A stretch of DNA of 64,000 nt from Cyanidioschyzon merolae (Eukaryota): the NCBI GenBank assembly GCA_000091205.1, contig AP006502.2; one strand, written 5' to 3'. Below the pieces are notes generated by a model, which was not told the origin of the DNA, ran no database searches, and saw only the letters and a list, made by a program, of their open reading frames with translations. Shown here in pieces: positions 22,670 to 62,769 of the stretch; the first letter of the stretch is position 1, and each line of letters opens with the position of its first letter. Position numbers and translations under genes: made by a program.

Positions 22670-24280
22670 TTTCGAGTGAGTGAACGCATTCGCTGCTTGC
22701 AGGTGCAATTCATAGTCAGCAAACCGTAAAACGTTCTATGACCGTGGTGGGTATACATATACATACCCAGTCGCAGACGCCTCCCAGGCTTGTTTGCCCA
22801 GACGACTGCTATCGGCTTCAGTCTCTCCTCGCACACTTTGACCATGAGAGTCTGCACCACAGAGTCGGATCGTGTAAGCTCCTCGGGTATCGTCTTCAGC
22901 ACTGCACATCTTCTGATATTGACGGCGGCGTTAAGGTCTCGGTTCACGAATTGCTTGCGTTTCTTGCCTCAGGTGCAACTAACCGATGCAAGGATTCCTC
23001 GGACGCGTGCCCTCTGTGGTACCACAGTATTGCCACCGTCCTGTCGAGCAAACACCATTCTCGTCCATCGCCCTTCCTATGCTCCTTAGTGATTTGCTCT
23101 TCTTTGCTTGGTGGACGACGAGATGCGGATTTTTCGCTTATTTTTCCCCGCAGCCGGAGATGGTGGTCCTCCAGCATCCTTGACTCGCAAGTCTATACCT
23201 TGGCCCATGATTTTTTATTTCTTCAAATGGACGCACTTTAGTATACTCTCAGAAAAGAACCCTCCCAGAGGGAGAAGGACTTGTGCGAGAAAGACAGCAT
23301 ATGTCCCGGTATCAATTTGAGCTGAACGCTTCAGTGATTCGCTCTGTAGAGCGATCATTCCTTTTCAGGATAGAGAACATTCCTTTCATGGGCGTCAATC
23401 ACGGAGTATACGTAGGAATGAAAAGCACCGCTGCCAAGACAGAATCGGCAAAAGCTCGAAAGAAATCGAAATGGTGAAATATCACGTTGTCCAGTAGAAA
23501 GACGTCGCCAAACGTGAGGGAAAAGTCCGCTATGAATCGACAAAATGAGTGCTGTTGGATGAGCCCTCTGAATGAGCGAAACTGATGCCGCCAATTGTAT
23601 CCACTGCAGCTAGAACAGATGATGACGCCTTAGTTCTCTTCGCGTTCGATCGTGCGTACCATGGGCTCCCTGCTCCGCGAATACCCATATCCATCCCGAG
23701 CGTCTCGCCCAAAGGAACTCTCATCGACTGGAAAAACAAAGTCCTCGTGTTTCTCACCTATCGCGACGTTTCAGGAACGCTTTCGCTGCGATTTCGGTGC
23801 AAGATGGCCATGGTTGAACTCGGACTTTTGTTGGAGAGTGTATCTCAGTGTATTCAGGACCGCACGAACAAGCTGTTGTGAAACAGAGACTCCCCTGATG
23901 GCTACTATTATCGCTTTTTTCTTTCCGTAAGGTGATCAATGGGTCTTTTTATAGCACTGACCGCAAGCAGTCTTCGAGAACATCGGTTTTTGGCGCGGAG
24001 TGCATCTACGTGCCTCTTTCATTGTTCCTCAACCATCAGAGTCCAGTGTAGTGACTACCCTGAATGAGAAATGCAATCCTCCGATCACTCTTCAGTAAAG
24101 CATATATCCTGCATGCAATTCATCTACGATCTATCGGCCACATTGCAGCCTGACCTCGATCCCCGTTTATACGCCGCATCGAGCGCGGAACAGACTTGAA
24201 AAACGAAAAGCTTCACAAGATCAGGTCGGCACAGGTGGCGGCCGTGCAAACCCAGTGCTTCATCGTGTTCGAGATTTCCC
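22670..24280 (+). repeat. dispersed repeat family, copy A (~1.6 kb; possible degenerate mobile element or non-coding duplication)
   Basis: About 70% nucleotide identity, with indels not in multiples of 3, to 43727-44250 (same strand) and to the reverse complement of 44350-45900. Shared landmark strings include tacatacccaGtcgcagacgcctcc, gtctcggttcacgaa, gatgcaaggattcctcg, ttcttcaaatggacgcactt, agaacagatgatg and gcgcggagtgcatctac. Confidence 0.7.
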
Positions 24281-31297: not shown

Positions 31298-33836
31298 GTT
31301 CGAGACTAGCGGTGTCAAGTTCGGAGACAACGCCAGGAAACTGGTCCTGGACACGCTTTTTGAAGCACTCTTCAAGCGACAAGTCGTATGTACGAAGCGG
31401 CGGTGGCGGGTGTTGGGAGCGCCCTGCCCCCGCCAGGCCGCCACCGGGTGCATTCCTGTCCGCACGTTCCAGGCGAGGATCCTAGGGCACAAGCGCTGCA
31501 CCTCTGATGAAGCCTATTGGTTGGGGGTTTTCGCACCTGGACCTATGCAAGCTTTTGTAACTTTCGCTTTTATGGGCGTAGACGTGGAGCATAGGTAGTT
31601 CTATAAACGGTAAGATTGGTTACCTTTAGTGTTCTTGGCGAGTTTTCGCTCGTAGCGTTCGTTACCCGCTCAGAGGGGGAGCGCGTGGTGATGTATGGTA
31701 GGATGCGGGCTCTTCGTTCCTTGAGCGTTTCTCGTGGAGTTCGAATCGTGCAGTTACGACTGTAAACAAGCAGAGGAGAAGCCCGTAAGCTCAACTGTTC
31801 AATTGCTTGTGGGGCACTCTGTTCCATTGATGCGCGATGCGGCACGCTCATAGTCGAAGTACTTGATGCTTGCGCTGGTCAGCAGCAGCAGCAGCAGCAA
31901 TAGCACCAGTGTCCAGATTGAAGTAGCGGCATCCAACTTGCAGAGCAGATCCCGCGGGCTACTGCTGCCGCGAACAAGAAGGCTCCCAACGGGCGTCCCT
32001 CTCTAAACCCGAGAAGGCACTGCTTCGTGCCGGGCTCAGGGGCATTGTCGCCCGCCGCTGCTGCCCTGTCCTGCGACCGGTGCGCCGAGTGAACAACGCT
32101 ATTCGCAGTGACGCATGAGAAACACCGACCCGAGCGCTGCACGGCCTTTCTATGGGACAACGACAGATGACTCAACCGTGTTGGTTTCCGATCGTAAAGC
32201 GCAGCTCATATGACGGAACCACAGCACTGCTCAAAGTATCCGCTCGCACACATTCTATATACGCAGCGGAAGCAAGAAAACTCGATGGACGTGCGCGAGG
32301 TGCTCGGTACATGCATGTTAGAATAGAATGGAAAGAAACAACGTACTTAAGACGGGCGTATGCCCCAAGTATGGGATCTCTTCGCACGGTCATCGACAAC
32401 AGCCTCTGCGAGCTTGCTCTGACACTGATTCCTATTAAACTTTCTTGTATGCGGCTTGATATAAGCGGGTCTCTCCTTCCCCTGTAGCGCCGTTGTGAGC
32501 CGTCGAACGATGTGCATGGCAGTGCCCAAGTCCCGATTCCGCCGATTCCAGCTGTCGTCAACACAATCATGCAGAGACGCAAGATGCGATATACGCCTCG
32601 TTTGCGATGTCCATCTTCTTTGTAGACACCCTCGATGCGCCCTTCTCAGATCTGCGACTTGACTGAACTCAGGTGCGTTCATATGACCGTCATACAATAT
32701 CTTCCATCTCAGAGGGCAACCCTGTGGCACGTGAACACTTGCCTCATCGTTTCGGTACGTGCTCTTGACAGGTGCAGAAGGCTCTTTTTGATGCCGTCCA
32801 CTATTTCCGCATCCGGTGTCGTACTCTCTGATCACGGGCTTTTTCCGGGAGCTGCCCTTCGGCGATTACTTTGTCCGCAGCCAAAGCAAGCGTACGCTGT
32901 CTCATGCGATCGAGAATTTACTTTGCACGATACTGCCCGTAATGCAACAACTAACGGAACAAGAATCTAGGCTGGAAGTCAAGTCCAAAAATTTCCACCC
33001 ATCTACCTTCCCTTCCTGCCGAACAGTGGTCACACACGCTGCACTGGAAACGATCACTGCAATGACCCGAGTCCGCGTCCAAGACCATTTCCATGCAAAC
33101 AGAAGAAACGGGCGCCTCTGAGCACATATCCCATGACAGGTATCGGGTTGGTGTGGAATGCGGTTTCGTCAAAGGCCAGAGAGCGTGAGATTTGTCGTTC
33201 GAGGGAACTCAATCGTTCGATTTGACAAGTTCAGTGAACGCTCGATGTCAGCGTGTGGGCAAGTCAGCAGACGACATCGAGTACCTCTTCGGTCAATGCA
33301 GGTACGCGACTGCGCGGAAACGAGAAGAACCCCAGAATGGAACGCGCTGCGCGCAAGGAGAAACGCAGAGGCTTGTACATATGAACTCGATGATGATATC
33401 GATTATTTTACGAACCCCAGGTTCAGGGCAACGCGAAACGTCTTCATTCCAGTAACGTTACGTATTCCAGTGGCAACGAGTCGAAACAGATACTCCGAAA
33501 GCACCACCACCAAGCATCCTAAAATGACGCATACAACAGTGCGCCCTTCGTGCTGCACACTGAATCTCCAGGCTGCACATCAAAGCAACTTCGGAAAAAG
33601 TCGAAACCCAGGAACCGACCAAGCTGTTCAGGATTCCTGTTGAATATGATGCGGGTCTAAGAGACGCACGTCTCCGCGGCAAAGACACCGTGGGTACGCA
33701 TGGATCGCCGACCTCGCTTCACCGACACGAGTCTTTGCCGACAAGCGTCGCTTGTAGACACAGCGTCAACGCTTTGAACTGCCTGGAGAGATCCATGGCG
33801 CGTAAACGTCGGTACCTAGCCAGTTCAACACAGGGA

Positions 33837-38901: not shown

Positions 38902-41900
38902 TCAGAGACTCACGGTGGCACTGGTTCGAACCAGGATACTGCTGCTGCTGCTGCTGCTGCTGCTCATCTCGTCGAACATCGAGTCATCGGTGTGAACACC
39001 AGCTGACACCGCCTTGCGATGCGCTCGTGTCGGAGACGATAACGCCGCCTGTCCCGATGTATACGCCGCTGCCGCTGCTCCTCGTGTTCTTTGCGGATGC
39101 ATGAGGTCACTGGAACGCCTACCCTCGCGTCCTGGACGCAGCAACTCGTGTTCAGCGGCAAAGTGGCCACGACGGTAGCGGCCGCCACGGCAACCAATAC
39201 GATGAATATCCCGGCGATCGACGTGCCGCCTCGACAACACCGCTGCTGCCTTTCCTTGTGCATCTTCTTCATCCTCCTTTGCCTCTATCTCTATCTGAAT
39301 CGCTGCCTCTGCCTCTGTCGTTGACGTGTGCATCGAACGTCCACCACTCTTGTCGCCAAGGCGGCGGGGCGATCGACGGCGCCTGCCCTGTGCGTTGAAA
39401 CAAGGATCGGCACACAAGATGCCGTCTTCACCCGTATCGACGTCTTCTTCGTCTTCGTCTTCACGATGGTGACGATCACGACCATCATCGGTGTCGCCGA
39501 ATGTAATCATCCAGGGGATATCGCCCAAGATACCGTTTCCAAAAGGCCCGAGGTCGTGTTCCAGTGGATCACCGGTCCACTGCCACCACTTGGGATCGAT
39601 CACGATATCGCCGTCACCGAGATCATCCGACTCCGGCCTGAACGGTGACCACAGACCACTCGACTCGTCCGAAGACGATAGTCGTAGTAGTTCTCGTTCA
39701 TAGGCATCGATCTGTCGCATACGCTGGAGATGACGATAAGCAAATGCCAACTGGCCCAGGTTACGCGAACGCTTTCGACGCTGCTGCCTGCGACAGGATG
39801 TGCGTCGCCCGCTACGCACTCGTTCCGTTGCTTCGGTGAGCGCTGTGGCGGAAAGCATCGGAGGCTCGGAGCGTACGCTCTCGCGACGATGTCGCTTAGG
39901 ATGCCTGCGTCGAGCCTCGCGATACACTGGTGACGCATTCTCGATATGGTCAGCACCACAATTACGATCATCGTCATCGTCATCAGTCAAGCTTTTCGGG
40001 GTTGCAGCTCCAGCACCGTGTCGTACCTGCGCTGCACGCCATGTTGCTGCTGCTCTTGGCGGTGGCGAGGGCAGGGCATGCTCACACGTCGCTACTGCCG
40101 TTGCCACTGCCACTGCTGCATGATCGAGGTGTTCACGCACGCTACCAGCATCCGGTGGTTGTGCTGTATCACCGCCAGCTTGCACTGGTATTGGCGTTCG
40201 TTCAAGCGCTCCAGTCGGTTCCGTTCGTGCGGAAACGGTACCAGATGCAGGCATCGTGCCAATGGGCGCACTCAACGCATCTTGTACCGTTGACGGTGCA
40301 ACGTGCGGCACGTGCTCATCAGAAACACCGGTTACCGATACGTCGCGAGTGTCATCATCGGATATCTTTGTCGAATCTCTTCCGGGCGCTGATCTCTCCT
40401 CAGCGGATTGCAGCGGTGTTGCCGCGGGATCCCTCACCGTCGCTGCGAGATGTCGGCCTACTGCTTCGATAATGGTGTCGACGCTGACCATGTTGGCAGC
40501 AGGGTCGGTAACAGCCTCGGAAGATGCGGCACGCTGATCAGCGACCTGCGCAGTGCTCAGTACGGGATCCGTTCCGGGATGCTCACCAGGTGTTGGGGCA
40601 GCTGCAGCTAGCGCCGCTCCAATATGTCTCCCCGGAACAACCAGGTATCGTCGATGAGCGGCCGAGGACGCACTTGCACCTAACGAAGGCGCCTGTGGCG
40701 TGACGTCCACGCGTAAATCCGCTGTTGAAACTGCCTCCACGAATGCCTCTGGCGTTGCTTCCGTTTCCTGACGCAGTGCCTGGTGTGGTATAAGCAACAC
40801 GAGGCCGTGTGTCGTTTTGATCGAGGTAATCGTAATGCGCTGATCACCGGCGTACGCTGGCAGCGTCGCAGTCGGTCCAATCGTTTCCGCTGATACCGGT
40901 CGATACTCTTCGATGCTGCCAAAGAGCACGCCTTCTGCCTCACTGGAGCTGGATACATCACTCTCCGCGGAGGATACGTCCGCTGCCGCATCGCTGCGCG
41001 ACAGCGCATGCTCAACATCCGTCACAGAGGCACAGTCACTGCACGAACAAGTGATGTCGAGGTGCTTGTACAGCTCGACCTCTGCTTCCAGACACTGGCC
41101 ACAGCTGCACGACACGCCATGCGCGGCGATGCACCGGTACTCGACGCCGTTCGAGAACATCGCTGTATCGCCAGTGATGCCTGCAACCAGACCGTCTGCA
41201 ACCTGGGGAATTGCTGCCAGGTCTGGCAGCAAGAGTCGAGATGCTTCATCGTCAAGGAGCAGGGCCCGTGCGTCCGTGTTCTCATTCTGGATCACTGTCC
41301 CGGAGGATGGAGCCCCGCGCTCGGGAGCACTCGCTGCATTGGGACCGGATGCACCAGCTGCGGGGCCGAGTTTGTCACCCAGCTGCTGAATCGTAGCCAT
41401 TCCAGCAAGCGCAGCACGATTCGGGACTGCAGTGGACCCGGTTCCATGCCCCAGGTTCAGATCCTGGCCAGTGTAGACTTCGCAATCCGGATGCCTCAGG
41501 AGATAGGCTTTCAGATTTTTGGCCAACGGCGACGCATTTCCCGAAATTTTCAGCTTCTTCACTCGATTCCATATGGGTACGTGCTCGCCGAGGCCTCCGC
41601 TCCCACTGCGCGCATCAAAAGAGCGTAGACGGCCCTGTTCATCGAGATCTTGGCCACAATATACTTCACAATTGGTGTACTTTGCTAAGTATTTGCGCAG
41701 GTTTTTCGCCAAGGGTGCAGCGTTGCCGCTGATTTTGCGCAACTCTTCGCGGTTCCAAATAGCGACCCGATCCTTCGCCCGATACTTGATGGTTTCTTGA
41801 TTCTGGGGAATGGACACTACGAGAATGACGGGATCCGCGAGATCACCATTCGAACCGGGTTTCTCTACAAAGCGCACATTCTGCTGGACGAGCGATGACG

Positions 41901-43005
41901 GCGTCGTGTCGAGCGCGGGGCGCCATGCAGACTGCTCTGGGGCAGCGTTCATGTTCGTTACAGTAGTGCTGTTCGTTTCCGTATGTGCGGATTCGGTGCT
42001 CCCCGGAGCACCACATGTATTGGAGGATGGTTCCGAATCCGCGGCTGGAGGTGTGGACGGTAGCTCGCAGGCTGCGCTTGCCCCGGTAGCCGCAGATTCT
42101 CCCGTTTGTGCAGGCGTCAGTGCCGAAGCGCTCGACATTTCAGGGATTCCAGCGGCACCAGTGCCTGCAGTGCGCCCTAGTGCACACGCTGGAGGCACTG
42201 CATGGCTCGGCGATAGCTGCGAATACTCGTTTGCCGTGTTTCCTGCTGGATCGGTGACGTCAGACTCCAGCATCGGTGCTTTGCGTTCATGAGCTGCAGT
42301 TTTCGAGCTGCCTTGTATTTCGCTTGCGCTTCGTAATCGATTGTTCTCTACGTTGCCCACAGAAGCGTTCGACAATTCGGTGAGCTCTGGGGTATTTACC
42401 GCGAGGGGCGTATCCGCATACTGGACGCCCTCGTCGGATCGAACTGCTGCCGTTTCTTGCTGGTCCTTCTCAACGTCCGGAGAACCGTCTCGAACAACAA
42501 CCTCCCCTGCTTCGTCTCCAGTTGGAGCTTGTGCAGCCTCTACAGATTCCAGCACCCTTTCAAGCGCACTCTCCCGTGCAAATGTTGATGGAGGTCGCTG
42601 TGGATTGCCTCGCACGGCATCCGATACGATTCGGTTCGCATCTGTGTCTGCGCAAGCATCCACCGTTACACATTCAGCCGGCACTTGAACTTGGCGAGCA
42701 CCGCGCTTCTTTTCGATGCTGATACGTTCTGCAATTGTTTCAGTTGTTGGCTCCAAAGTGCCCCTAGCGTCATGCTGCTGACAGTTGATATTGCTCCATG
42801 GTGCACGAGCAACCGAAGGTAGCGTTCTCCTAGCGGATACGCTCACTCGGGTGGCTGCTTTTCGGGTTAGGCCACTTGTCTGGGTGCAGGCCTCGTCCGG
42901 CGGTGCGTGCACCAGGGACTCCAGCTCGACACCCGGGCATCCACTGCTTGGCGGACTCATCGGAACCCCATCCGAAAACTCAGTGGCTTGTTCAAGCTCG
43001 GTCAT
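38902..43005 (-). CDS. large (1367 aa) low-complexity protein with tandem ~45-aa helix-extension-helix (LEM/HeH-like?) modules and a Cys-rich segment
   Basis: ATG start at 43003-43005 ([10 protein letters not shown]). The body is S/A/T/P/E-rich. Two adjacent repeats read [40 protein letters not shown] and [40 protein letters not shown]. A Cys cluster reads [36 protein letters not shown]. The C-terminus is acidic and then basic, ending in polySer encoded by (CTG)n at 38940-38964. Confidence 0.6.
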   Translation of the reverse strand: [1367 protein letters not shown]

Positions 43006-43726
43006 TCCAGTACACTTCTCGTTCGTACAGAGCGCAGTTTACACGCAGCGTGCAGTAAAAACTCTCCGTAGCGCTCGTGCTCGTGTCAGCAGCTATGGTG
43101 GTGTGCGATCGCCCTTGCAGCAGTTTCGAACCGAACACAGGTAGCAGGCTGCGCGGGTGACCAGAGCCAACTCGTCCAAGAATGCCTCGCTTTCAGCTTC
43201 GTCAGTACCTTCAACTCTATGTACTTGTCAATGAACCGCAGGAAAAAACGGCGTAGGCCCGAGATCGTTCACAGCTCGGCCCCGATCTGCGGCCGCAGCT
43301 CGAGCAAGCCGTCACCAGGCCGCGTCGCTGCGTCTATGCACCACCTATGGAGCGTGTGTCCCGAACGGCCAACTGCTGGTCGCCTTCCAACAGGATGACC
43401 CTCTATATCCAAAACCCAAGCTGATTACTCAAGAAGCGAATAGGAACACACAGCAGCTTGGATGCACCTGTTACACACAACCACCCGTTACCAATAGACC
43501 TCCAGCGAGAGAAAGCGCCGCCCATCCATAGATTGGGACACCGGCGTCGGCGTCGATGTCGCCGTCGTCGATGTCGGCGTCGACGGCCTCATCGCGATGA
43601 ATCCACCGAACACCCGACATTCGTATGGCATTGCGGTAACGTGCAGTCATCGATCGACCATAAACTGGATGGCTACTTGCGATATGTCGTCAATGACTGG
43701 TCGACTGTGGGCTTGTGATCGTTGTT

Positions 43727-44250
43727 CAAATGAATGAGCGCGTTCCGTAATCATGTGAGGTACATGAATACCGACGGGCAGACGCCTCCTTGCCTTGTTC
43801 GACGCGCCCTCTGCTATCGGTGTCAGCCTCTCCTTGTACACGTCGGGTCTGAGAGGGGGTGCCCCTCAAGGCTGGTATACCGCAGCTGCACAGGTCTCTG
43901 CTTCAGTAACGCACACCTCCTGATATGTATAGCAGCGTGTAAGTTTCGATTCACAAACACAGTGTGTTGCTTGCTTCTGATTGTGTTCACCAGTGCAAGG
44001 AGTCCTCGAACTCGTGCCCTCAGTGCCACGGCAGTCTCGTCATCGTGCCATCGGGTGAACACCTCTTTATTTCCCTTCTTCTTCTTATTTTTGGTCACTT
44101 GTGCTTCTTCGATGGCTTGTTGACAAGAAGAGGATTTATTCGTTTTTTTCCTGCAGGCGGAGATGGCGGCCTTCCAGGATCCTCCACTTGCCTGTCCATT
44201 GCTTCCCGTTGGATTTTTGTTTCTTCAAATGAACGCACTTCAGACGCATG
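43727..44250 (+). repeat. dispersed repeat family, copy B (5' ~0.5 kb fragment)
   Basis: Aligns to the first ~520 bp of copy A, from gaatgagcgcgttccg...cagacgcctcc through ttcttcaaatgaacgcacttcag. Homology to A stops there. Confidence 0.65.
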
Positions 44251-44349
44251 AGCTGTAACCGCGAAAAAGTATATGATTTCGCACACCTAGGAGAGTTACC
44301 AATTGAAGGGAACGTCTAGCAACGGCAGACGGTGCCATTTCCGCACGTC

Positions 44350-45900
44350 CGGTAAAGGCGTCACGATTTCGCTGGACGCCACGAAGCACTGCTTCATATG
44401 ATCTTTCTACTCAGTTTTATGGAACGACTGCTGTGGTGTGTAGCAAGCCACGGAAATTACCATGCCATGTATCATGCAGGTCTTAGAAGAATTGCCTGTA
44501 GTTTCTATATTCTTAACTGAACATTGCAAGGAGGACTACATTCCTCTTCAGGTCAGTCATATCACAATACCCAGATGATTGGGGAACACTGGATGAAACA
44601 AGTAGATGCGCTCCGCGCGAAACACCGATATTCTCGAAGAGTCCTTGCGGTCAATGGTAGGACAGGATAAACACCATGTGGTAAGCGAAAGCGACGATCG
44701 CAGTCACCACGGGCGGCTGTGTTTCTCAACAACGTTTGAATATTGTCCTGAAAACTCTAGGATGCTGGCACAATACAGTGCTCGTACAATTACGGTCATC
44801 TTTCACCGAAATCGCTACGACAACGTTTCTGGAACATCGCGATCGGCATGAAGTACAGGGACGTCGGGTTGTTTTCTCAATCGATGAGACTGACTTGGGA
44901 CGAGCCAGTCGGAGTGTAAATGGGAATTCGCGGAGCATGGTGCCCGTTGTATTTACGATCGGACGCGAGGAGAAGGGTGGCATCATCTGTTCTAGGTGGA
45001 GCGGATTCATTATGCGACCTCGGATTCGCTCGCAGACATGGCTCATACAACAGCTTCGACCACTTTATCAAATCATTGAAGGCTTTTTTCCTGACGTCTC
45101 GCGCCATGCTTCCATGAAGCAACATGGCATTTGACCGGTCCCGTTGCGTTCGAGCTTTTGCCGATTCTGTCGGAATGTAGAGCCGCTTTTCATTGCTCGG
45201 TACCCGCGGTGGTTCAACTCCATCGAACACATGTTTTCTATCTTGAACCGTAATGATCGCTCCACTGGGCGAATCGCGGATGCTTCCAGAACACAGGGAC
45301 ACAACGGGGCACAGGTCGTGTTTGTTCCGCAAGCCCTTCTCGCTAGGGGCAGGTCCTCGTCGATGGTCATAACAAAGTGCGTCCATTCGAAGACAAAAAG
45401 ATCCAAGGGAAACTTTTGGTGATGCACGTCGGGGATCGTGGAAGCCTGGTGGCTCCAGGATCTACAAAGAAACGAACATATCCTCTTCTCTCCGAACAAG
45501 GAGCGAAGAGGAAGAGCACGGAAGATGGCGGAGGAGTCTGCCTGACGGGACGCCAACGGGACTGTCGAGACACAGAGGGAACGAGTTCGAGCAATCCTTG
45601 CATTGGAGCGTTCAATCATCGGCAAAAATCGCATGGAGTTCGTGAACCGAGACTTATATGCCTCCGCCTCTATCGGGCGACGTGCGGTGCCGAGGACGAG
45701 ACCCAGGTAGCTGACACGATCCGACTTTATGGGACAACCTCCCAGGATCGAACTGTACAATGAGAAACTGAAGCCGACGGCAGTCGGCCGGTCGACAATG
45801 GCGGGAAGGCGTCTGCGCGTGGGTATGTGTATTTACTCTCCATATTCGGAAATTGCTGTTCGCTTCACTGACGTGTATTGCGTTCATGCCAGCCATGTGC
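44350..45900 (-). repeat. dispersed repeat family, copy C (~1.55 kb, inverted relative to copy B)
   Basis: The reverse complement aligns to copy A over its whole length. The matching strings are acatacccacgcgcagacgcc, gtctcggttcacgaa, caatgcaaggattgctcg, cgaatggacgcactttg, agaacagatgatg and gcgcggagcgcatctac. The 3' end of C lies ~100 bp from the 3' end of B. Confidence 0.7.
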
Positions 45901-47380
45901 TGTTCTAGACTGAGTTAATGATCAAAACTATGTGGATGTATCGAAGCAGTGCCTGAAGCGTACTCGAATTCTAAGGTTCGGACAAGGCGCTCCGACGCAC
46001 ACACAGCGCGCTAATAGATTCATGTCCATCGGGAGAAGCACTGCATCAGACCGATGGCGTGCTCGTCTTTTGAAACCATACTTTGGGATGCAGGTTGCGG
46101 CGCATCTAGATATCTTGAAGCTCGTAACTGCCGGACAGACAGAAAAACGCATCATTCCAAGGGATTGCTCAAGCATGTCTTGCATCGCTGGATCAGGTTC
46201 GGATGCCTGGCAGTGCTTCAACATCTGGGCTCGATCGAAACCGAAAGTCTTCGTACAAGGAGCCAAAATCCCTTTTCTGCTGACTTGCAGCATTTCCGTA
46301 TTCGAAATACTCGAACTGGATGTACTGATTCTTCACGTAAATGATTACTGACGGGGTCCATGCAGATTTTCGGCTTTTCTCACGTCCATTCTACAAGAAT
46401 ATCTTTGCGTTTCCATGGACTGCAAAAAGGCGAGCCTGCGTCTTCGCATTCTATCGATAGTGAGGAAATTGGCGACAGAAAACAAACCCCTACGAAACGT
46501 TGCTGCTGTCACGAGACACTTTGAGCCTGCACGCCGCATATTCCAGGAACGGAATAGGTGCCTGTTGCTCCGAGCACATACCAGGCTGCGGCGGTGGCGT
46601 TGTACTGACACCATGCACCAGTTGACAGTCGCATGTGGTAATTTTCCGGCTCCGGCGAGAGATCGGTTGCAACCCAGAGGCCAATGGAATTGTTGCCAGA
46701 GGATCATGTCGAGATTGGGTAGACCCGTGGTATTCGGATTTGTTCATCGATCATCATCGTTCGTGACACGATCGACAGAGTGCATCCACGGACAACAAGG
46801 CAGGCAATTCGGATGACATGCGCTCGACCACTGGCTATGAAATCATTTGGTGCTTAGCTGTGAACGAGCATGGCGGTGAGTCTTCAAATCGAGGGTTGTT
46901 TAGGTGTGCAATACGGGTCAATGTGCCGGGCGCGTTCCGGGCAAGAGAGATCCGCGTCCACCATCAAGTCACTGGACGTATCCAGTTGCCCGATCAATAA
47001 CGTTCTGCTTATCGATGATGACGTCGTCATTGAAGACCAGACACAGGCGCGGAAGAACCGAGGATACTCACCTGGTCCCGATCGACAGTGTATCGCGTCC
47101 ACGTCACTGAGACGACAACAAGTTCCAGCCGCTACTGCCCAGGAAATGGCGCATGCTCTGGTCCTCCTCATTTCAGGATGGACGGGTTTCACGCCAGATG
47201 CGCTGGGCGCAGAAAAGCACGGGCCGTGATCTTCGCGTGCGCTTCTGGTAAACCGAGCAGGCCTCGTTGACATTAGTAGCGGCTGCACAGCCGTCTGCGT
47301 TTCATTTGGAGTGCCATCCAATCGGAGCATCGTCAAGGACGCCGGCCCCGAGTGTGCCGCGTACTCGCCAGTGATTGATT

Positions 47381-48451
47381 TCATTCATCATCACACGAGG
47401 AGATGGCATGCTGCGGTGGTGCCTGCTCGTGACTGCGCAGCTCACGCAGTACGGCATCAAGCTGCTCTCGAAAGTGTCGCAGGCGCTGGCGTAGGCGCGT
47501 GTTCGCCTGAGCATTGGCGACGCAAGCGCGTCGCCAAGCGTCCGATTCAGAACGTAATCGAGTGATTTCCGCTCGCAAGCGCTGCAACTCCTCGCTAGCC
47601 TCCGTACTGCGACGGGCTGCTTGTGATTTAGGGTATGCGGTGTCGACACGAGACGGGCTGGCGCATCGAGTGGCGATTTTCGTATCTAGGGCGATGTTCG
47701 AGAATCTTGTTCCTCGTCTCCGATGTTGGTCGTCTCCCAACGACTGTGACTGTATCAAAGCACCGGACGATGTTCCATTGCGTATCTTAGGCACCGAACC
47801 GCGCGGAAGCCGAACCTGCGGCTGCCGTATCCGACTCGTCACCGGCGATAGGTCATCGGACTGCGCTCGGTTTACGAAACTCGACTCGGACCTGGAAGAC
47901 GAATTCGCTCGGCTTCCGTTGCGGCCATTCTGGAATCCGATGCCTGCTTCAGACGGATCACAAGGCTGCTTCCATTCAAAATACGACGGCGTCTCATCGA
48001 CGAGGCTCATATGAAGACCGCTTTGGATGCCTTCGAGCATGCGCTCCAATGGCGGGGTCCATGCTTCCGGATCCGTAGCTGACACTCGAGACATGTCCGC
48101 AGCAGCTTTGGTGTTTCCTTCGGTCGATAAGCACAGCACGTCTCGACTGGTAGACGAGGCGGCGCGGGTCCGGGCTCCGCCTCCTCGCGCAAGCCACGGA
48201 GTCCCATATGCTTGTTTCGAAGCAGCAGCAGCAGCAGCAGCAGCTGGTGTTGCGACAGACCGACTTTGTCTCAGCGCAAAGCTCCCCGGCACAACGACCT
48301 GTTCGTCGGAACGCGACCCCTCCGCCTCTTTCGGGCTGCTCGCTTCACCTGCCCGGCTGTCGAACAAGCCCGGCGTTCTGGACGTGCCATCTACCTGACG
48401 ACAGCGCCCGCGTTCTTTCGAAAATGTGAGCCTCCGAGCGACGTCCTCCAT
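47381..48451 (-). CDS. hypothetical S/A/R-rich protein with C-terminal coiled coil
   Basis: The track start is a GTG; the first ATG is at ~48449-48451 (MEDVARRL). The C-terminus reads SEELQRLRAEITRLRSESDAWRRACVANAQANTRLRQRLRHFREQLDAVLRELRS with a heptad-like pattern. It carries polyA from a (CAG)8 run at ~48221-48245. Overlapping plus-strand ORFs make the coding strand uncertain. Confidence 0.3.
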   Translation of the reverse strand: MEDVARRLTFSKERGRCRQVDGTSRTPGLFDSRAGEASSPKEAEGSRSDEQVVVPGSFALRQSRSVATPAAAAAAAASKQAYGTPWLARGGGARTRAASSTSRDVLCLSTEGNTKAAADMSRVSATDPEAWTPPLERMLEGIQSGLHMSLVDETPSYFEWKQPCDPSEAGIGFQNGRNGSRANSSSRSESSFVNRAQSDDLSPVTSRIRQPQVRLPRGSVPKIRNGTSSGALIQSQSLGDDQHRRRGTRFSNIALDTKIATRCASPSRVDTAYPKSQAARRSTEASEELQRLRAEITRLRSESDAWRRACVANAQANTRLRQRLRHFREQLDAVLRELRSHEQAPPQHAISSCDDE

Positions 48452-50198
48452 GAGGATCACGATATCTCGAGTACGTCCGCTTGGTTTAAGCGTGACGCCC
48501 ACACGCTACCCAGAGGATACAAACAGCGTTGGCAGCGGAAGGGCCTCAGATTCCAGCGCAGTTGCGCGCCGTGCTCGGATTCGGAACCTCCACCGTCGCT
48601 GTCGCTCCACTGGGCGAATCGCTGCGTGCGTTCGCGCCAACGCGGACACGTGTCCTACACGCGATCGATTGCGCACGCATAGAGGGAATGCTGCTGTTGC
48701 ATCGCGTGTTGATGGCTGATGATCGACTCCAGACTGCGCGATGCATACTGGGAAAGCACCTGTGATGCCGCAGCCGACCTCCATGATCGATGAGCAATAC
48801 GTCCTGCCCGATGCACTGGTTGTTTCGTGCGTTCCATTGGGTGCCGAGTGTCTGCGGGGCGTTCCCGCGATAACGCCCTACAGCACCGGTGAGGAACGCG
48901 ATCCAGTGGCAAACGCAGCGCGCAGCAACGACGTTCGCAAGCATATGGCCGGGCATCGTTTCGTTTGCACGTGGCGCGCACAGCGTTACTGCATGGGGCC
49001 TGCGCGCCATCCCGTAATGGAGGCGCTCGTCTCAGGAGGTACCCAGTGTCAATAAGCACACATGGGGCGAGGTGTCCGCAGGCGGCATCTGTGCATCTGT
49101 GAGCGTGTTGTGGCAGGGGATTTGGGTTAGACGAACGCGTTCTGGAATAGATGGCGAGGGTTCCTTTATCCGGTATCTTGTCCCGACATATTCCCTGATC
49201 TGCTGGTTGCACATTCGATGCATTCATGCTGCATAGCGATCAGCTCAACGGTACTAGCATGCGTTCGAGGCGGCTAATCAACGCTCCATGTCGACAGAGG
49301 TTCGCTGAAAATGTGCGTTGATCTCCATCGGGACGCACCCGAGGTGATCTCCTCACCATATCACATCGATGATCCTGTCCATAAAAACCATCAGTGTGCG
49401 CGAGTGGATCTCTAAATGAGCGCTGATTCTGCACGAGAAGGTGTTCGTCCACGGTCTGCAGTGAAGTGCCTGCAACGGCTTGGCGCACTCACGGCGTGCA
49501 AGCTGACCAGCACGCTGCGCGCTTCCGCCGCTTTCTCCAAAACGAGCTGCGTCCGGGCGACTGTGAGCCCCGTAACGGAAAGTGCCCTCTGTGCGCAGCT
49601 GGTCGACCATCGCCCGCATGACAACGCTTTGGATAACCCTGGACACTGCACGTGAACGAAACATCGCCACCAGGGTCTATGCTGCACTACCGAAAATACT
49701 CGATCATACAAGCAGATGCACTGCTTAGGATAGGATCCGTCTGCTCGTGAAGGTAACGGTGCCCGCACAGAGCTGTTGCGGCTTGTATCCCACGACAGAC
49801 TGGCGCGATTGCCTCATCGTCCGATGAATTTTCGGTGAATACCTGAACACGAAACTCATCGCCGCATACTCCCTGCAATTTCTATGCAGAGCGTACACGT
49901 ATGCATCTCAGTAGGCTGTCGCATCGGCCTTGGTCTCTATCTCGCCCAGCAAAACATGAGCTCCGCTTCCCTACCGAGCCTTTCGGGGGTAACGGTGCGC
50001 GCGCGCTAAGCCACACATTGTGGCGCCGCGAATCGTGGCGCTGCGGCCTCCGCCCGCATCACCCGCGCAACGGGCACACGCTGCGCACCATTCGCGTACC
50101 CGAGCTGAACACCTATCGGGTATGTCTGGCGTAAGCGGGTGTGGTACCTCAGCCTGATGCAACGGAACCTCAGCACCAACAGAACATGATTTGGAGTA

Positions 50199-51596
50199 AT
50201 GTTGATATTTTTGACTCCGGTAGAATGCATTTACGAGCGTCCAGCACCAACGTACCGAAACAAGGCCTTTACAACACCCGAAGTGCGCGTACCGCATCGC
50301 GAGCGACTGCATCGCGTTCGGCGTCGAGCACTGACCCCAGTGCGGGTGCCTGGGGTTGTCGCAATTGCCTCGGACGCCAACGAAGGATCTACTCCTTCCG
50401 ATGAACCCTGGTGGCGAGAACGCGCGAGGTTAGTGGTATCGAGACAGTCTCAGGCGACCGGAGACGCACCGACAAGTCGCCGGAGGTTTCTCCAAGCGCT
50501 CGTGCTGGCCTTGGTTGGTTTCGTTGCGGGTAGCCTTGGCAAAAGCGCTTCTTCAGGAAAAGCAGGGACGCAAGCGCAAGCAGTTACTTTGGCTCCGACA
50601 CCTATAAATCCGTATGCCCGCCGTCGTCAGAAGAAGCAGTACGAGAAATACCTCGAGATACAGAAAGCGCTCATTGAGCGCAATCGACTACGTCGCAAGT
50701 ATTCACGAAAGCCGCCTATAGATACGGATGCGCTTCCGTATTCCCTGTCAGCATTGAGTGCCTTTGTGGCTTCAGCAATCAGTACATTCATTGTACATCC
50801 TATTGACACGATCAAGACGCGGCTGCAGATGCGCGGAGCCTCGTGCCCGCTCCCGCCGAATCAGCTGTACCGAGGCGTTGTGTCCAATGTCTGGAAGGAG
50901 GCACCGAACGCAGCGATCTACCTAGGCGTCTATGAAGCCTTCAAGGATATATTCTTGCGAACACCAGTTCTGGGATCTTATCCAATGCTTTGCTTTCTGC
51001 TGGCCGGCGGGCTCGGGGATGCCATCGGTAGCGTCGTGCGGGTTCCGGCGGAGATTCTGAACAAGCGTTTGCAACTCGGTCTGAGCGCGACGCTAAGTGA
51101 TGCATGGCGCGAAGTGTTTTGCGATCCAAACAACCGGGAGGTTGTGAAAGTCACCTGGATGGCTGTGCTGGCGCGCGACGTTCCCTACGGTGCCTTGCAG
51201 ATCGCTTTCTATGAGCAACTGAAAATCCTGGTGTTGGTTCATCATGCAATGGGAGCGCAGAGCGCGAAGGGGCTCTTTCTTGATGCGTTACTGGGAGCGA
51301 TTGCGGGTTGTGCAGCCGCCTTCCTTACGACGCCAGCGGATGTTATCGTGACGAGGCTGGCGTCACAGTACCCCCAGTCGTACATAGATACACGGCGTTT
51401 TATGGGCGTTTTGGGTACCGCACGGCGCATCGTCGAGATGGATGGCTGGCGGGGCTTCTTCTCCGGATCCCTTCAGCGAGCCGCCTACTATGCGCCGCTG
51501 ATCGGCCTCTTCTTCTTCCTCTATGAGACGTGTCGCTATGTTGCGCTCCATCCAGAGACGGTGTCGCAGCTTGTCACCTCATACTTACCGTTATAA
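50199..51596 (+). CDS. mitochondrial carrier family protein, S-adenosylmethionine carrier (SAMC/Pet8)-like
   Basis: Three carrier repeats are present: VHPIDTIKTRLQ, RVPAEILNKRLQ and TTPADVIVTRLAS. The context matches SLC25A26 (APNAAIYLGVYEAF, VLARDVPYGALQIAFYEQLK). A ~185-aa N-terminal extension precedes the carrier core. ATG start. Confidence 0.8.
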   Translation: MLIFLTPVECIYERPAPTYRNKAFTTPEVRVPHRERLHRVRRRALTPVRVPGVVAIASDANEGSTPSDEPWWRERARLVVSRQSQATGDAPTSRRRFLQALVLALVGFVAGSLGKSASSGKAGTQAQAVTLAPTPINPYARRRQKKQYEKYLEIQKALIERNRLRRKYSRKPPIDTDALPYSLSALSAFVASAISTFIVHPIDTIKTRLQMRGASCPLPPNQLYRGVVSNVWKEAPNAAIYLGVYEAFKDIFLRTPVLGSYPMLCFLLAGGLGDAIGSVVRVPAEILNKRLQLGLSATLSDAWREVFCDPNNREVVKVTWMAVLARDVPYGALQIAFYEQLKILVLVHHAMGAQSAKGLFLDALLGAIAGCAAAFLTTPADVIVTRLASQYPQSYIDTRRFMGVLGTARRIVEMDGWRGFFSGSLQRAAYYAPLIGLFFFLYETCRYVALHPETVSQLVTSYLPL

Positions 51597-58917: not shown

Positions 58918-60171
58918 TAGCGCATGTTGAACAGGATCCTCGGTTGCAGGCGGAATTGCGGCCGATCAGGCGAATAGATGCCGGTGTCTGAACGGAAGGT
59001 GCGCTGTTTGTTGGCGGCTCGCGGCCAGTATCGCAAGTTCGTATGCGGGACGCTGAAGTGGAACCAGTTCCTCAGCTAGCTTCCTGTTTGCACCTGGATG
59101 CTAAGCCTCGATGCTAGCTCTCTATGTGCAGTGTGCAGGACAGCATGCAGGCAAACAATGAAACAGAGCATGATCCTTATTCGTAAACAGGGCCAGTTAT
59201 CGTGCCGACAGACCCAGGATCCGAGTAAAGGAACTTACGCCCTGCACGTCTAGCTCCAGATTCGCAAAGATATGCATGTGAGCACGGGTGCAAGTCCATT
59301 TAAAATCAAGCGTACAGCGCTTGCTCGATAGATAGAGAATCGAGCAGCACGAAAACTGCATGTGGATGTCACGCTGCAGCGACATTTACCTCCATTTTCT
59401 TCGGGCTTGGACGAGCGACAACGGCTGCCAGGTGAGCCAACATCAACAGCCGAGCGCGATGCCGTTCTCCTGCACGCCCAGCAATGATATGCAGAGTGAC
59501 GGATTCCCATTCATTCCATCTGGTCAGCGCTCTTTCGCGACAACTGATATTAATGTAAGCAATCTGTTTGGAGAATTTACATACGCATGCATAAAACGGG
59601 ACCTTGTTTTCGTGCTGTTCTGCCTGGTCGTGAAGCGTAGCGCGATGCGTCGAGTCCTCGGTCGTTTCCGCGGACTGGAGCTATACTGGCGAATCTCGTC
59701 AGTGCACACACGTCAAGTCGACGGATATCTGCCTCTGGAATCGCTGGAATCGTTCACCAGGGATATGGGGAGCACTCGACGCTTCAAGTATGCCCTCTTG
59801 GTGCACGCTGAAGAATCGAATCATGGAACACCAGCATCATCTATCAATCGCCCAGGAAAATCGTTATAGGTATCAAGAAACGGTGCTCCAGCCCCTCGAT
59901 TCAGCGGAACTACACTGCACTAGTGCCGCGCTCTAGACGAAAGTCTGATCCCCGTTCCCCTCGCCACTGCTCTTTGTCCATCAGAATTCTTTAATAATTG
60001 TGCACCATGCCCACACGGCATGCAACACGATTCCCTCGAATATTCATTTGACAAAACGCTGCGGGACGCTTCGGAAGCACGAAGCATTTCCTCACTTTGA
60101 CCGAGGCGTTCAAGTCTCCGCGCAGAAAGTACGTGCACACATGATTGCTGTTGGAATTATACCATAACAAA

Positions 60172-61803: not shown

Positions 61804-62769
61804 TTAAGGTGTATTGCGACGGGAATTCCAGAATTCACTGCTCTGCATGTAACGATAGGGGGTCGCTGTTGTGCCAACGGACGTACTGCCAACGCCTGTT
61901 GGGCCACGAAGCACACCTACGACCTAGGGGCTACGCAACGCTTCTAGCAAGGGACGTTCGGGTCCCTCGCATTCGCCCCAGGCACCGAGCGGCTCGTCAG
62001 AATGTCAAAGGGCTGCTTCTTGCAAACTCCGCCCTCATCGCGCATAGGTGTAGTGTGCGCTCATGAAGAGTTGGAACAACACAGAATCGCGTCTGTGACA
62101 CTGTTAATTCTGACGCACTTAGTATTGCCCTGCCGACTAACGGAGCTGGAGTGCAACTGTCTCCTTGGTGCCTAGCAACTTCTGGGCGTCACTATGGACG
62201 CCAACTGGTTACCGCTCACGCCCAGTGCAGCGCTGGCATCCGAAGTAGCCCCGCCCGAGCCGCTCCAATATCATGGCCAGTAGACAGACCCGCGAGGTCC
62301 AGGTACAAGTCTCGCGTATTGGACGAGCCCAATGGGCCAGTGCTCGGAGCGCCTCCGCAGTTGCAGGTGCCGAGCAAAGGCCTGTGTCCAGAGACGGCTA
62401 CGCGTTCTCCAAGCGACCGCGAAGATAGCGCCGGACACTGAAACTGTGTCCTGGTCGCCACGGACCTCCAGTGTGACTGCACTTGCCGATTGACAGACAG
62501 CTCGAGCCGATGTAGCAAACAGGCAGAGAATGGCCTTTTGGTCTCTCTTTATGCGTTCGATCACCGGTGCGTCACCGAATCCATCAGGCCCCTATTCCTG
62601 CGAAGCATACCTGTCTGGAACAGTTGGAACGGTTAGTCGTCTGCATGGAAAGTAAACCCGGTTTCCTAATCACGACTACGACTCATACAGCCCGTGTTAC
62701 CTGGCTCTATATAACCGCCTCATCGAAGTCAATGCACGACTCGTTGGCTAAGTACGGTTGGCAGCGGAC

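What the first reader, a model, noticed from the sequence alone, without database searches (positions are those of the whole stretch)
43727..45900. Tail-to-tail inverted pair of the repeat family (copies B and C) forming a ~2.2-kb quasi-palindrome
Copy B runs forward and ends at ~44250. Copy C runs in reverse from 45900 down to ~44350. Their 3' ends face each other across ~100 bp, and the first ~520 bp of each are mutual reverse complements at ~70% identity. Such a configuration can arise from nested or adjacent insertions in opposite orientation, or from a partial inverted duplication. Inverted repeats of this size are recombinogenic and can give hairpin or cruciform structures or dsRNA if transcribed through. 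The pair sits in a 4.3-kb gene-free interval between the large low-complexity gene and the next gene.
Basis: seen in the sequence. Interest (0 to 1): 0.6.

Follow-up and report, generated by a model that had tools for sequence, protein, structure and literature searches.

The report
Dead transposon pair with Fanzor-derived arms
The 2.2-kb "quasi-palindrome" is two decayed mobile-element relics of a hot-spring red alga lying head-to-head: a transposase pseudogene and a small gutted Fanzor1 (TnpB-like) element, which share a Fanzor1-derived segment and are inert today.

Summary
The inverted repeat is real. Window 43768-44240 pairs with the reverse complement of 45375-45826 at 64.6% identity (score 123, against 11.8±1.4 for shuffles).

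It is not low complexity, and it is not a local duplication.

- **Copy C (about 44399-45874, + strand)** is a roughly 1.5-kb IS630/Tc1-mariner-type transposase pseudogene. Its last ~500 nt are an internally deleted Fanzor1 element.
- **Copy B (about 43719-44312, - strand)** is the same gutted Fanzor1 module without a transposase. It reaches 73 nt further into the Fanzor 5'UTR than C's arm does.
- **The module is the published one.** It matches the Cyanidioschyzon merolae CMe-1A consensus (nt 794/867-969 joined to 2833/2840-3092) and its Fanzor1 protein (tblastn E 1e-14 to 1e-22).
- **The pair is old.** The same arm-junction-transposase arrangement, with a homologous junction, occurs at an unrelated locus in metagenomes of the same species. 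So the pair was copied as one unit of about 2.16 kb.
- **All copies are dead.** The 14 transposase-bearing copies are equally diverged (66-73%) and carry stops and frameshifts.
- **The arms are too diverged to recombine.** Their longest perfect inverted match is 11 nt.

This is ordinary transposon debris. The one notable point is that it ties the unclassified CMe-1A Fanzor1 family to an IS630-like transposase.

The parts
43719..43769 (-). Outer terminus of the B unit, the 'arm-type' 3' end read on the minus strand. It is also the left end of the 2.16-kb composite.
   Evidence: nhmmer envelope 43713/43727-44263. Stacked alignment of 14 arm ends gives the consensus ...GTGAAACGTTTTTCGTTTCACTGACGA|TA. 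The exact end is uncertain by about +/-8 nt.
43770..44028 (-). B, arm part 2: the last ~86 codons of a Fanzor1 gene. The RuvC-III motif relic 'NRNLHAAIHI' lies at 43922-43951.
   Evidence: BLASTN to published CMe-1A consensus nt 2833-3092, 66.9% over 263 nt, E 5e-28. tblastn with CMe-1 Fanzor1 aa 640-728, 51%/39% identity, E 2.5e-14. ORF reading.
44029..44135 (-). B, the stretch around the internal-deletion junction of the Fanzor1 remnant. It is homologous to the same stretch in copies A and C.
   Evidence: Continuous alignment of A, B and C through this stretch. It lies between the two CMe-1A-matching blocks.
44136..44312 (-). B, arm part 1 plus extra 5'UTR: Fanzor1 5'UTR and the first ~21 codons ('MDRQVEDPGRPPSPPAGKKR'). 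44243-44312 is absent from the arms of A and C.
   Evidence: BLASTN to CMe-1A nt 794-969, 70.6% over 180 nt, E 1.4e-21; the A and C arms start only at CMe-1A 867/868. tblastn aa 1-20, 70% identity, E 1.7e-5. Alignment with Fanzor-type loci L042/L043 and the solo unit L052.
44313..44398 (.). Junction of about 85 nt between the two units, shared with copy E and otherwise unique. It ends in TA (44397-44398). It contains a terminus-like motif CGATTTCGCTGGACG (44364-44378), which is suggestive only.
   Evidence: upC vs upE 68.4% over 694 nt. Single HSP L021 4135-5744 = window 43759-45358. No significant similarity to the element consensus, to R2 or to L042, nor to the flank of solo unit L052.
44399..44466 (+). 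5' terminus and ~65-nt leader of copy C (family consensus TA|TCGTCTTTCAACTCAATTTTGTTTCAC...).
   Evidence: Stack of 12 copies; column support falls to background about 12 nt upstream of CAACTC. 19/30 inverted match to the 3' terminus, z 2.6, 10 of 500 shuffles.
44467..45300 (+). IS630/Tc1-mariner-type DDE (DD34E) transposase pseudogene of copy C, with several stops and frameshifts.
   Evidence: Pfam DDE_3 on copy A, E 2.4e-9, and on the consensus, E 5.9e-13. NCBIfam IS630 family NF033545, E 2.4e-37, 129 bits against a cut-off of 100, on the 16-copy consensus. Frame switches in C from tblastn and X positions in the projected translation.
45373..45874 (+). Right arm of copy C: the same internally deleted Fanzor1 module (45373-45476 and 45575-45820) plus the arm-type terminus. 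The RuvC-III relic 'NRDLYASASI' lies at 45645-45674.
   Evidence: BLASTN to CMe-1A 867-966 and 2840-3088 (65.4% and 70.5%). tblastn aa 646-730, 50.6% identity, E 5e-20. Termini.
22705..24205 (-). Copy A: a second transposase + deleted-Fanzor1 copy in the window, with no inverted arm beside it. It retains an exact 'NRDLNAAVNI' motif at about 22915-22944.
   Evidence: (no left arm).

Best explanation
Window 43719-45874 is a decayed composite of two related DNA-transposon relics lying head-to-head. C (+ strand) is a ~1.5-kb IS630/Tc1-mariner-type element. It consists of a short leader, a DD34E transposase gene that is now a pseudogene, and a ~500-nt tail. The tail is a Fanzor1 (eukaryotic TnpB-like) gene with about 1.86 kb deleted, so that the 5'UTR and first ~21 codons are joined to the last ~90 codons and the 3' end. 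B (- strand) is that same gutted Fanzor1 module without the transposase, and it has 73 nt more of the Fanzor 5'UTR. It is a small non-autonomous derivative of the CMe-1A-type Fanzor1 element. The 'inverted repeat' is simply the Fanzor1-derived module present in both units. Inferred: because both outer ends of the pair are the same kind of terminus in inverted orientation, the pair could be cut and pasted as one ~2.16-kb unit by the family's transposase. Shown: it was copied as a unit at least once, giving copy E at another locus. Shown: all copies then decayed equally, to 66-73% pairwise identity, and none of the copies recovered is intact. Inferred: today the structure does nothing. It encodes no working transposase or nuclease, and its arms are too diverged for homologous recombination or cruciform extrusion.
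For: 1. The repeat is real. 2. Evidence is Pfam DDE_3, NCBIfam IS630 at 129 bits against a cut-off of 100, the motifs LLLDNVAFHH...PPYSPWFNPIE with 34-residue spacing in the consensus, and 29% identity (E 6e-13) to the transposase of the Fanzor1-carrying Mariner PUl-1. 3. The arm is a deleted CMe-1A element. This was tested directly against the published consensus and protein (PMC3627910 supplements). BLASTN hits fall on CMe-1A 794/867-969 and 2833/2840-3092, and tblastn gives E 1e-14 to 1e-22. A search with the arm peptide found 110 ORF clusters. The long ones read ...VVAYGAGRW...VDEFRTSYTHHELGC...NRDFNAAINI, matching CMe-1. 4. B differs from C's arm: it extends to CMe-1A 794 whereas A and C start at 867. 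A solo unit of the B kind lies at L052 3797-4353. 5. The architecture recurs. Copy E (L016-19, L021) has an inverted arm 125 nt upstream of the body, and it aligns contiguously to window 43759-45358 with non-homologous flanks. 6. Divergence is star-like, 66-73% for all pairs, and C and E (68.9%) are no closer to each other than to other copies. 7. No intact close relative was found among 1.84 billion representative proteins. Near hits are fragments, and intact ~300-aa proteins are at most 40% identical. 8. The longest perfect inverted match is 11 nt.
Against: Only 2 of the 13 transposase-bearing copies whose 5' end can be read (C and E) have the inverted arm, so the composite is a minority form. 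Termini and target-site duplications cannot be read with confidence at this level of decay. The 30-bp terminal inverted match of the 1.5-kb form is only suggestive (z 2.6), and flanking TA appears in the consensus but not in every copy. Whether the 85-nt junction is filler DNA or the 5' part of the B-type unit is unresolved. Transposition of the pair as a unit is inferred from two copies, and no mechanism was observed. The Fanzor1/TnpB nature of CMe-1 itself rests on the literature and on motifs. Pfam TNB is sub-threshold (E 0.07-0.5), and PDB sequence searches found nothing.
Confidence: 0.72

Rival explanations
1. One autonomous transposon with ~555-bp long terminal inverted repeats (as in Tc3 or Minos). 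B is its left TIR, and the one-armed 1.5-kb copies are derivatives that lost the left arm.
For: Two independent copies (C, E) share left arm, junction and body. DDE transposons normally need inverted ends. Another inverted pair of the arm's distal 250-310 nt exists at L060.
Against: The left arm is not a mirror of the right arm, because it carries 73 nt of extra Fanzor 5'UTR. Eleven of the 13 transposase-bearing copies with a readable 5' end lack it and start within about +/-30 nt of one point. Random loss would not give that pattern. That common 5' end has its own terminus-like sequence and flanking TA. A solo B-type unit exists.
Confidence: 0.15
2. Two independent insertions at this locus (adjacent or nested), or the same event recurring by site-specific insertion of a B-type mini-element into the TA beside a transposase copy.
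For: Tc1/IS630 elements target TA, and a TA separates the junction from C's terminus (44397-44398). In copies G and P a TE-N2-like element abuts the 3' end of the transposase element directly, which shows that elements of this group can sit end to end.
Against: The 85-nt junction is homologous between C and E. It is not found beside the solo unit L052. Independent insertions would not share filler sequence.
Confidence: 0.1
3. Local partial inverted duplication of the end of C.
For: Arm identity (65%) is similar to between-copy identity, so timing alone does not exclude it.
Against: B contains sequence (CMe-1A 794-866) that C's arm does not have. The same pairing exists at another locus.
Confidence: 0.02
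4. A selected structure, such as a hairpin RNA or regulatory palindrome, rather than debris.
For: Predicted RNA pairing between the arms is far better than for shuffled arms (-138 vs -20 +/- 7 kcal/mol).
Against: That gain is what residual 65% complementarity gives. The arms have diverged as much as unlinked copies of the family, there is no run of complementarity longer than 11 nt, and most family members carry no partner arm.
Confidence: 0.02

Closest known systems
CMe-1A Fanzor1 element and TE-N2_CMe of Cyanidioschyzon merolae (Bao & Jurka 2013, PMC3627910; 3169-bp consensus, ~150 copies ~80% identical to the consensus, classification unknown)
   Same: The arms of A, B and C align to CMe-1A nt 794/867-969 and 2833/2840-3092 and to the CMe-1 protein. 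The window also holds a TE-N2-like copy at 12496-13160 (79.7% to CMe-1A 1-659), and the R2 family consensus is 91.6% identical to CMe-1A 4-643. The degree of decay is the same.
   Different: Here about 1.86 kb of the Fanzor1 ORF is deleted and the TE-N2 5' region is absent. In A and C the module is fused behind an IS630-like transposase gene that the paper does not describe. The last ~60 nt (arm-type terminus) differ from the published CMe-1A 3' end.
Mariner-type elements carrying both a transposase and Fanzor1, e.g. PUl-1 / PUl-2 of Pythium ultimum (same paper: 24-33-bp TIRs, TA duplication)
   Same: Gene order is the same: transposase followed by Fanzor1 on the same strand. The transposase superfamily is the same (consensus vs PUl-1 transposase 29% over 133 aa, E 6e-13).
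   Different: The Fanzor1 gene is gutted, all copies are pseudogenes, and TIRs and TA duplications could only be glimpsed.
IS630 family / Tc1-mariner (ITm) superfamily DDE transposases
   Same: The NCBIfam IS630 model is matched above its cut-off over positions 14-275 of 299. Pfam DDE_3 is hit, the signature is DD34E, and the implied ORF is about 290-300 aa.
   Different: There is a ~540-nt 3' tail of foreign (Fanzor1) origin. No intact member was found. The nearest intact proteins are at most 40% identical, are unnamed and come from metagenomes.
Composite or long-TIR transposons (two element ends in inverted orientation mobilised as one unit; long-TIR Tc1-like elements such as Tc3) - named from my own knowledge
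   Same: Two copies of one terminal module in inverted orientation bracket a transposase gene, and the whole is found at two loci.
   Different: The two arms are unequal, the composite is the minority form, and movement as a unit is inferred rather than observed.

Membership tests
IS630 / Tc1-mariner superfamily DNA transposon (copy C body, copy A) | DDE (DD34E/D) transposase catalytic domain | tested here: met
   Pfam DDE_3 E 2.4e-9 (copy A) and 5.9e-13 (consensus). NCBIfam NF033545 at 129 bits against a cut-off of 100. D...D(34)E readable in the 16-copy consensus.
IS630 / Tc1-mariner superfamily DNA transposon (copy C body, copy A) | N-terminal helix-turn-helix DNA-binding domain | tested here: inconclusive
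   Only weak Pfam hits: HTH_33 E 0.0057 and HTH_Tnp_Tc3_2 E 0.028. The IS630 model does align from its position 14.
IS630 / Tc1-mariner superfamily DNA transposon (copy C body, copy A) | Terminal inverted repeats | tested here: inconclusive
   The consensus termini match 19/30 in inverted orientation, z 2.6, reached by 10 of 500 shuffles. Individual copies are too decayed to judge.
IS630 / Tc1-mariner superfamily DNA transposon (copy C body, copy A) | TA target-site duplication | tested here: inconclusive
   TA is the majority dinucleotide just outside both consensus termini, but it is not present in every copy. In C there is a TA at 44397-44398 on the left, and on the right the nearest TA is at 45876-45877.
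IS630 / Tc1-mariner superfamily DNA transposon (copy C body, copy A) | Intact transposase ORF (autonomy) | tested here: not met
   Stops and frameshifts in A, C and D. The exhaustive search finds only ORF fragments among close relatives.
CMe-1A Fanzor1 element family (arms of A, B, C) | Nucleotide homology to the published consensus | tested here: met
   65-71% over 100-263 nt blocks, E 4e-6 to 5e-34; family consensus 78.5% over 260 nt.
CMe-1A Fanzor1 element family (arms of A, B, C) | Homology to the CMe-1 Fanzor1 protein | tested here: met
   tblastn: A E 1.8e-22, C E 5e-20, B E 2.5e-14 (C-terminal ~85 aa). N-terminal 20-49 aa E 1.7e-5 to 4e-4.
CMe-1A Fanzor1 element family (arms of A, B, C) | Complete Fanzor1 ORF with RuvC-I, -II and -III | tested here: not met
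   CMe-1A nt ~970-2830 is missing. Only the RuvC-III motif region survives: exact in A (NRDLNAAVNI), degenerate in B and C.
CMe-1A Fanzor1 element family (arms of A, B, C) | TE-N2-like 5' 635 bp | tested here: not met
   Absent from A, B and C. Present separately in the window at 12496-13160 and as a fragment at 48717-48884.
TnpB / Fanzor superfamily (RuvC nuclease with TNB domain), for the CMe-1-type protein itself | Significant match to the TnpB/Cas12f TNB-RuvC profile or to a solved Fanzor/TnpB | tested here: inconclusive
   Pfam PF07282 is only sub-threshold (E 0.067-0.51) and restricted to the NRDFNAAINI motif. There were no PDB sequence hits. The AF2 model was too poor to search with (pLDDT 51). 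Assignment to Fanzor1 rests on Bao & Jurka 2013 and on the motifs GADPGN / VDEFRTS / NRDFNAAINI.
Single long-TIR transposon | Both arms are equivalent copies of one terminal sequence and occur together in the family's copies | tested here: not met
   B has 73 nt that the right arm lacks. Only 2 of the 13 transposase-bearing copies with a readable 5' end have a left arm.
Composite unit mobilised as a whole | Same arrangement with homologous junction at an unrelated locus | tested here: met
   Copy E: L021 4135-5744 aligns in one HSP to window 43759-45358, and the flanks are unrelated.

The most novel reading that the evidence does not exclude
The IS630-like transposase family found here is the missing autonomous partner of the CMe-1A / TE-N2 Fanzor1 elements of Cyanidiales. 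Bao & Jurka (2013) reported those elements as having no TIRs and no assignable class. Three observations support this reading. The transposase copies carry a CMe-1A-derived tail. The published CMe-1A 5' end is an inverted copy of the arm-type 3' end (23 nt, z 5.6, 0 of 1000 shuffles). The transposase element's 5' terminus matches the reverse complement of the very 3' terminus of CMe-1A (9/10). So the two element types would use the same two kinds of end in swapped arrangement, and the Fanzor1 family would belong to the IS630/Tc1-mariner superfamily. The B+C composite would then show that two ends of one kind are enough for movement.
Probability: 0.4. Interest if true: 0.5.

Novelty: new member of a known kind. 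Interest (0 to 1): 0.32.

Why it matters
For the genome itself the finding matters little. It explains a 2.2-kb stretch of an intergenic gap as inert transposon debris, and it removes any need to invoke hairpins, dsRNA or ongoing recombination.

Its wider value is for people who study Fanzor/TnpB elements. The arms are a gutted Fanzor1 gene of the CMe-1A family, and in copies A and C that module is fused to an IS630/mariner-type transposase gene. This physically links a Fanzor1 family whose mode of transposition was left unclassified to a plausible transposase.

The gene order (transposase, then Fanzor1) is the one already known from oomycete Mariner-Fanzor elements. It also gives a set of 14 equally aged transposase copies, plus more than 100 arm ORF clusters, from which ancestral termini could be rebuilt.

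Tried and rejected
1. **Early TnpB/Fanzor idea for the whole repeat,** prompted by 'NRDLNAAVNIRR'. Pfam instead gave DDE_3 for the body and nothing for the arm peptide. I set the idea aside. It turned out to be right for the arm only, once the published CMe-1A consensus could be compared.
2. **Single element with 555-bp TIRs,** with the other copies as truncations. Weakened by the common 5' boundary of 11 one-armed copies, by B's extra 73 nt and by a solo B-type unit.
3. **Junction/spacer tests.** I looked for similarity to the element consensus, R2, L042 or the flank of L052. None was significant. A terminus-like motif in the junction (CGATTTCGCTGGACG) needs two indels and is only suggestive.
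4. **Coding potential of R2 (TE-N2-like).** No Pfam hit in six frames.
5. **Structure route to confirm TnpB fold.** AlphaFold2 on 30 aligned C-terminal ORFs gave pLDDT 51, so no fold search was run.
6. **PDB sequence or profile searches** with the arm peptide, P0216, alignment A3 and full CMe-1. No hits.
7. **Taxonomic origin of the nearest intact IS630-like proteins.** The clusters carry no organism names.
8. **Left arm next to copy A.** None found.
9. **Similarity of the short form's 5' end to the TE-N2 5' end.** Not significant.
Full report
**Organism and setting**

The window is eukaryotic, intron-poor and about 55% G+C. Genes lie on both strands and include an ammonium transporter, Rad17, a mitochondrial carrier and a tyrosine aminotransferase. 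The aminotransferase is 72% identical to a Cyanidiococcus yangmingshanensis protein. Metagenome contigs from JGI hot-spring samples are about 99.0% identical to the window over 10.7 kb: L035 = window 39606-50290, and L004 = window 18318-29002. The source is therefore a Cyanidioschyzon-like red alga that is abundant in those samples.

- The repeat finder reports three collinear inverted blocks between 43768-44149 and 45466-45826.
- A gapped local alignment joins them: 43768-44240 against the reverse complement of 45375-45826, 475 columns, 64.6% identity, score 123. Shuffles gave 11.8 ± 1.4.
- A third copy, A (22705-24205), aligns to C over about 1.45 kb at 67%, and to B over about 480 nt.

**What copy C and copy A are**

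A metagenome scan with stitched translations returned 38 loci. These collapse to 14 distinct copies.

A 16-sequence majority consensus restores most of an ORF:
- It reads MYPIDRRR...VFSVDETFFGR...LLLDNVAFHH...FIPPYSPWFNPIEGVFSIVKRNDRSTGRI, a DD34E signature.
- It scores 129 bits on NCBIfam 'IS630 family transposase' against a cut-off of 100 (E 2.4e-37), and hits DDE_3 at E 5.9e-13.

All individual copies have stops and frameshifts. An exhaustive HMMER search of 1.84 billion representatives finds only ORF fragments among close relatives. The nearest intact ~300-aa proteins are at most 40% identical. In those intact proteins the query's end maps about 20 residues before the C-terminus, so the transposase ORF ends before the arm begins.

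Pairwise identities among the copies are all 66-73%. This is a star-like pattern, meaning one old burst followed by equal decay.

**What the arm is**

The arm's sense frame carries 'NRDLNAAVNI'. I recognised this as the RuvC-III motif of TnpB/Fanzor, but Pfam and PDB searches did not confirm it.

A protein search with the arm consensus found 110 ORF clusters in metagenomes. The longer ones read ...VVAYGAGRW..TPAPTTRTYKECARRFVTIPVDEFRTSYTHHELGCTLQRVEMEKCQ...RRAKVRGLLALVST..GKKRMEFVNRDFNAAINIRRCAVLE....

The literature search led to Bao & Jurka 2013 (PMC3627910). That paper describes an old Fanzor1 family, CMe-1A, in C. merolae:
- about 3 kb long and about 150 copies, each about 80% identical to the consensus;
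- no TIRs and class unknown;
- its 5' 635 bp equal another element, TE-N2_CMe.

The paper's supplements hold the consensus DNA and the protein. Direct comparison settles the matter:

| Unit | Window coordinates | CMe-1A nt matched | tblastn vs CMe-1 Fanzor1 |
|---|---|---|---|
| A arm | 23239→23130 and 23014→22773 | 868-969 and 2840-3084 | E 1.8e-22 |
| C arm | 45373-45476 and 45575-45820 | 867-966 and 2840-3088 | E 5e-20 |
| B | 44312→44136 and 44028→43770 | 794-969 and 2833-3092 | E 2.5e-14 |

The N-terminal peptide MEKEVEDPGGPVSPAAGKKR is also recognisable in B and A.

The arm is thus a Fanzor1 element with about 1.86 kb of ORF deleted. The 5'UTR and first ~21 codons are joined to the last ~90 codons, followed by a ~60-nt terminus that differs from the published CMe-1A 3' end.

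CMe-1 itself gets only sub-threshold Pfam TNB hits and no PDB hits. Its Fanzor1 status therefore rests on the paper and on its RuvC motifs.

**B is not a truncated C**

B extends 73 nt further into the Fanzor 5'UTR (CMe-1A 794-866) than the arms of A and C. In that stretch it aligns with Fanzor-type loci (L042, L043), with the left arm of copy E, and with a solo unit at L052 3797-4353 that has no transposase beside it.

B is therefore a small, transposase-less, ORF-less derivative of the Fanzor1 element. This excludes a local inverted duplication of C's end.

**The pairing is old and was copied as a unit**

- Copy E (L016-L019, L021) is no closer to C than any other copy (68.9%).
- It nevertheless has an inverted arm 125 nt upstream of its body.
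- It aligns to window 43759-45358 in one HSP (68.6% over 1625 nt). That HSP runs through the arm, the ~85-nt junction and the transposase, while the flanks are unrelated.
- The junction has no significant similarity to anything else tested.

The simplest reading has three steps. A B-type unit and a transposase element came to lie head-to-head once. The pair was bounded by two arm-type termini in inverted orientation. It was then moved as a ~2.16-kb unit during the family's active period. The last step is inferred.

Eleven other transposase-bearing copies, including L044, have no left arm. They begin within about ±30 nt of one point, roughly 65 nt upstream of the ATG.

**Termini**

Stacked alignments give the following consensus ends for the 1.5-kb form:
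- 5' end: TA|TCGTCTTTCAACTCAATTTTGTTTCAC...
- 3' end: ...GTGAAACGTTTTTCGTTTCACTGACGA|TA

The two ends match 19/30 in inverted orientation (z 2.6). This suggests short imperfect TIRs and a TA duplication but does not prove either.

Two further matches tie the element types together:
- The published CMe-1A 5' end (nt 8-30) is an inverted copy of the arm-type 3' end (z 5.6, 0 of 1000 shuffles).
- The 1.5-kb form's 5' terminus matches the reverse complement of the very 3' terminus of CMe-1A, 9 of 10. This second match is not significant on its own (z 1.9, reached by 76 of 1000 shuffles); it is notable only because it lies terminus-to-terminus.

The same paper's PUl-1 and PUl-2 Mariner elements carry a transposase followed by Fanzor1. 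The consensus transposase here is 29% identical to PUl-1's (E 6e-13). The inferred ancestor therefore has a known architecture.

**Present-day consequences**

The longest perfect inverted match between the arms is 11 nt. Homologous recombination or cruciform extrusion is therefore not expected; this follows from general knowledge of minimal homology requirements.

A read-through RNA could still form an imperfect duplex: cofold gain -138 kcal/mol against -20 ± 7 for shuffles. Nothing suggests selection for it.

**Verdict**

It is wrong on orientation sense, on B's identity, on a local origin and on present-day reactivity.

The feature is ordinary transposon debris. Its one interesting aspect is that it links the unclassified CMe-1A Fanzor1 family to an IS630/mariner-type transposase.

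Noticed in passing
window 12496-13160 (+): A near full-length copy of the TE-N2_CMe-like element (= 5' 659 nt of the published CMe-1A consensus, 79.7% identity). It lies between the genes at 10346-12385 and 13293-15602. The family consensus built here ('R2') is 91.6% identical to CMe-1A nt 4-643.
   Followed up: yes
window 48602-48622 and 48717-48884: A 21-nt stretch (TCGCTCCACTGGGCGAATCGC) is identical to copy C's transposase motif region (45257-45277). About 100 nt further on lies a TE-N2-like fragment (CMe-1A nt 21-193, 69.7%). This looks like a scrap of the 'transposase truncated at ~nt 879 + inverted TE-N2' variant seen in copies F and O. It sits just upstream of the ORF 47381-48502 (-).
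   Followed up: partly
window 60033-60525 (-), possibly extending into ORF 60541-61158 (-): Another, more diverged Fanzor1 pseudogene fragment. tblastn with CMe-1 aa 534-612 and 636-699 gives 43% and 34% identity, E 5.5e-19.
   Followed up: partly
window 62765-63665: A tandem array of 6-7 units of 121-123 bp, G+C-rich, with some units 97-100% identical. It lies at the right edge of the window.
   Followed up: no
window 3011-3262: Three tandem copies of an 84-bp unit (92% and 70% to the first copy).
   Followed up: no
window ~19285-19851 and ~28600-28885 versus 32548-33523: A further dispersed repeat family at about 64-74% identity. It is unrelated to CMe-1A or to the transposase family: direct pairs 19589-19831 / 33025-33261, and extra HSPs of L004 and L021 against 32548-33523.
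   Followed up: no
published CMe-1A consensus nt 8-30 versus the arm 3' end (e.g. window ~45835-45860, ~22720-22745): The 5' end of CMe-1A/TE-N2 (AAAACGTTTACATTGACCATGGA) is an inverted copy of the arm-type 3' end (z 5.6, 0/1000 shuffles). The ancestral arm terminus also contains an 8-bp hairpin, GTGAAACG-TTTTT-CGTTTCAC. The paper reported no TIRs for CMe-1A.
   Followed up: partly
L060 885-1133 (-) and 1710-2023 (+): Another inverted pair, made only of the distal ~250-310 nt of the arm and separated by ~580 nt with no transposase. It lies between a cytochrome-b5 gene and a short-chain dehydrogenase gene.
   Followed up: no
L010 and L029 (copies F, O); L010 and L033 (copies G, P): Structural variants of the family, as old as the rest. 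In F and O the transposase element is cut at about nt 879 and continues into an inverted TE-N2-like element. In G and P a TE-N2-like element abuts the arm's 3' terminus directly.
   Followed up: partly
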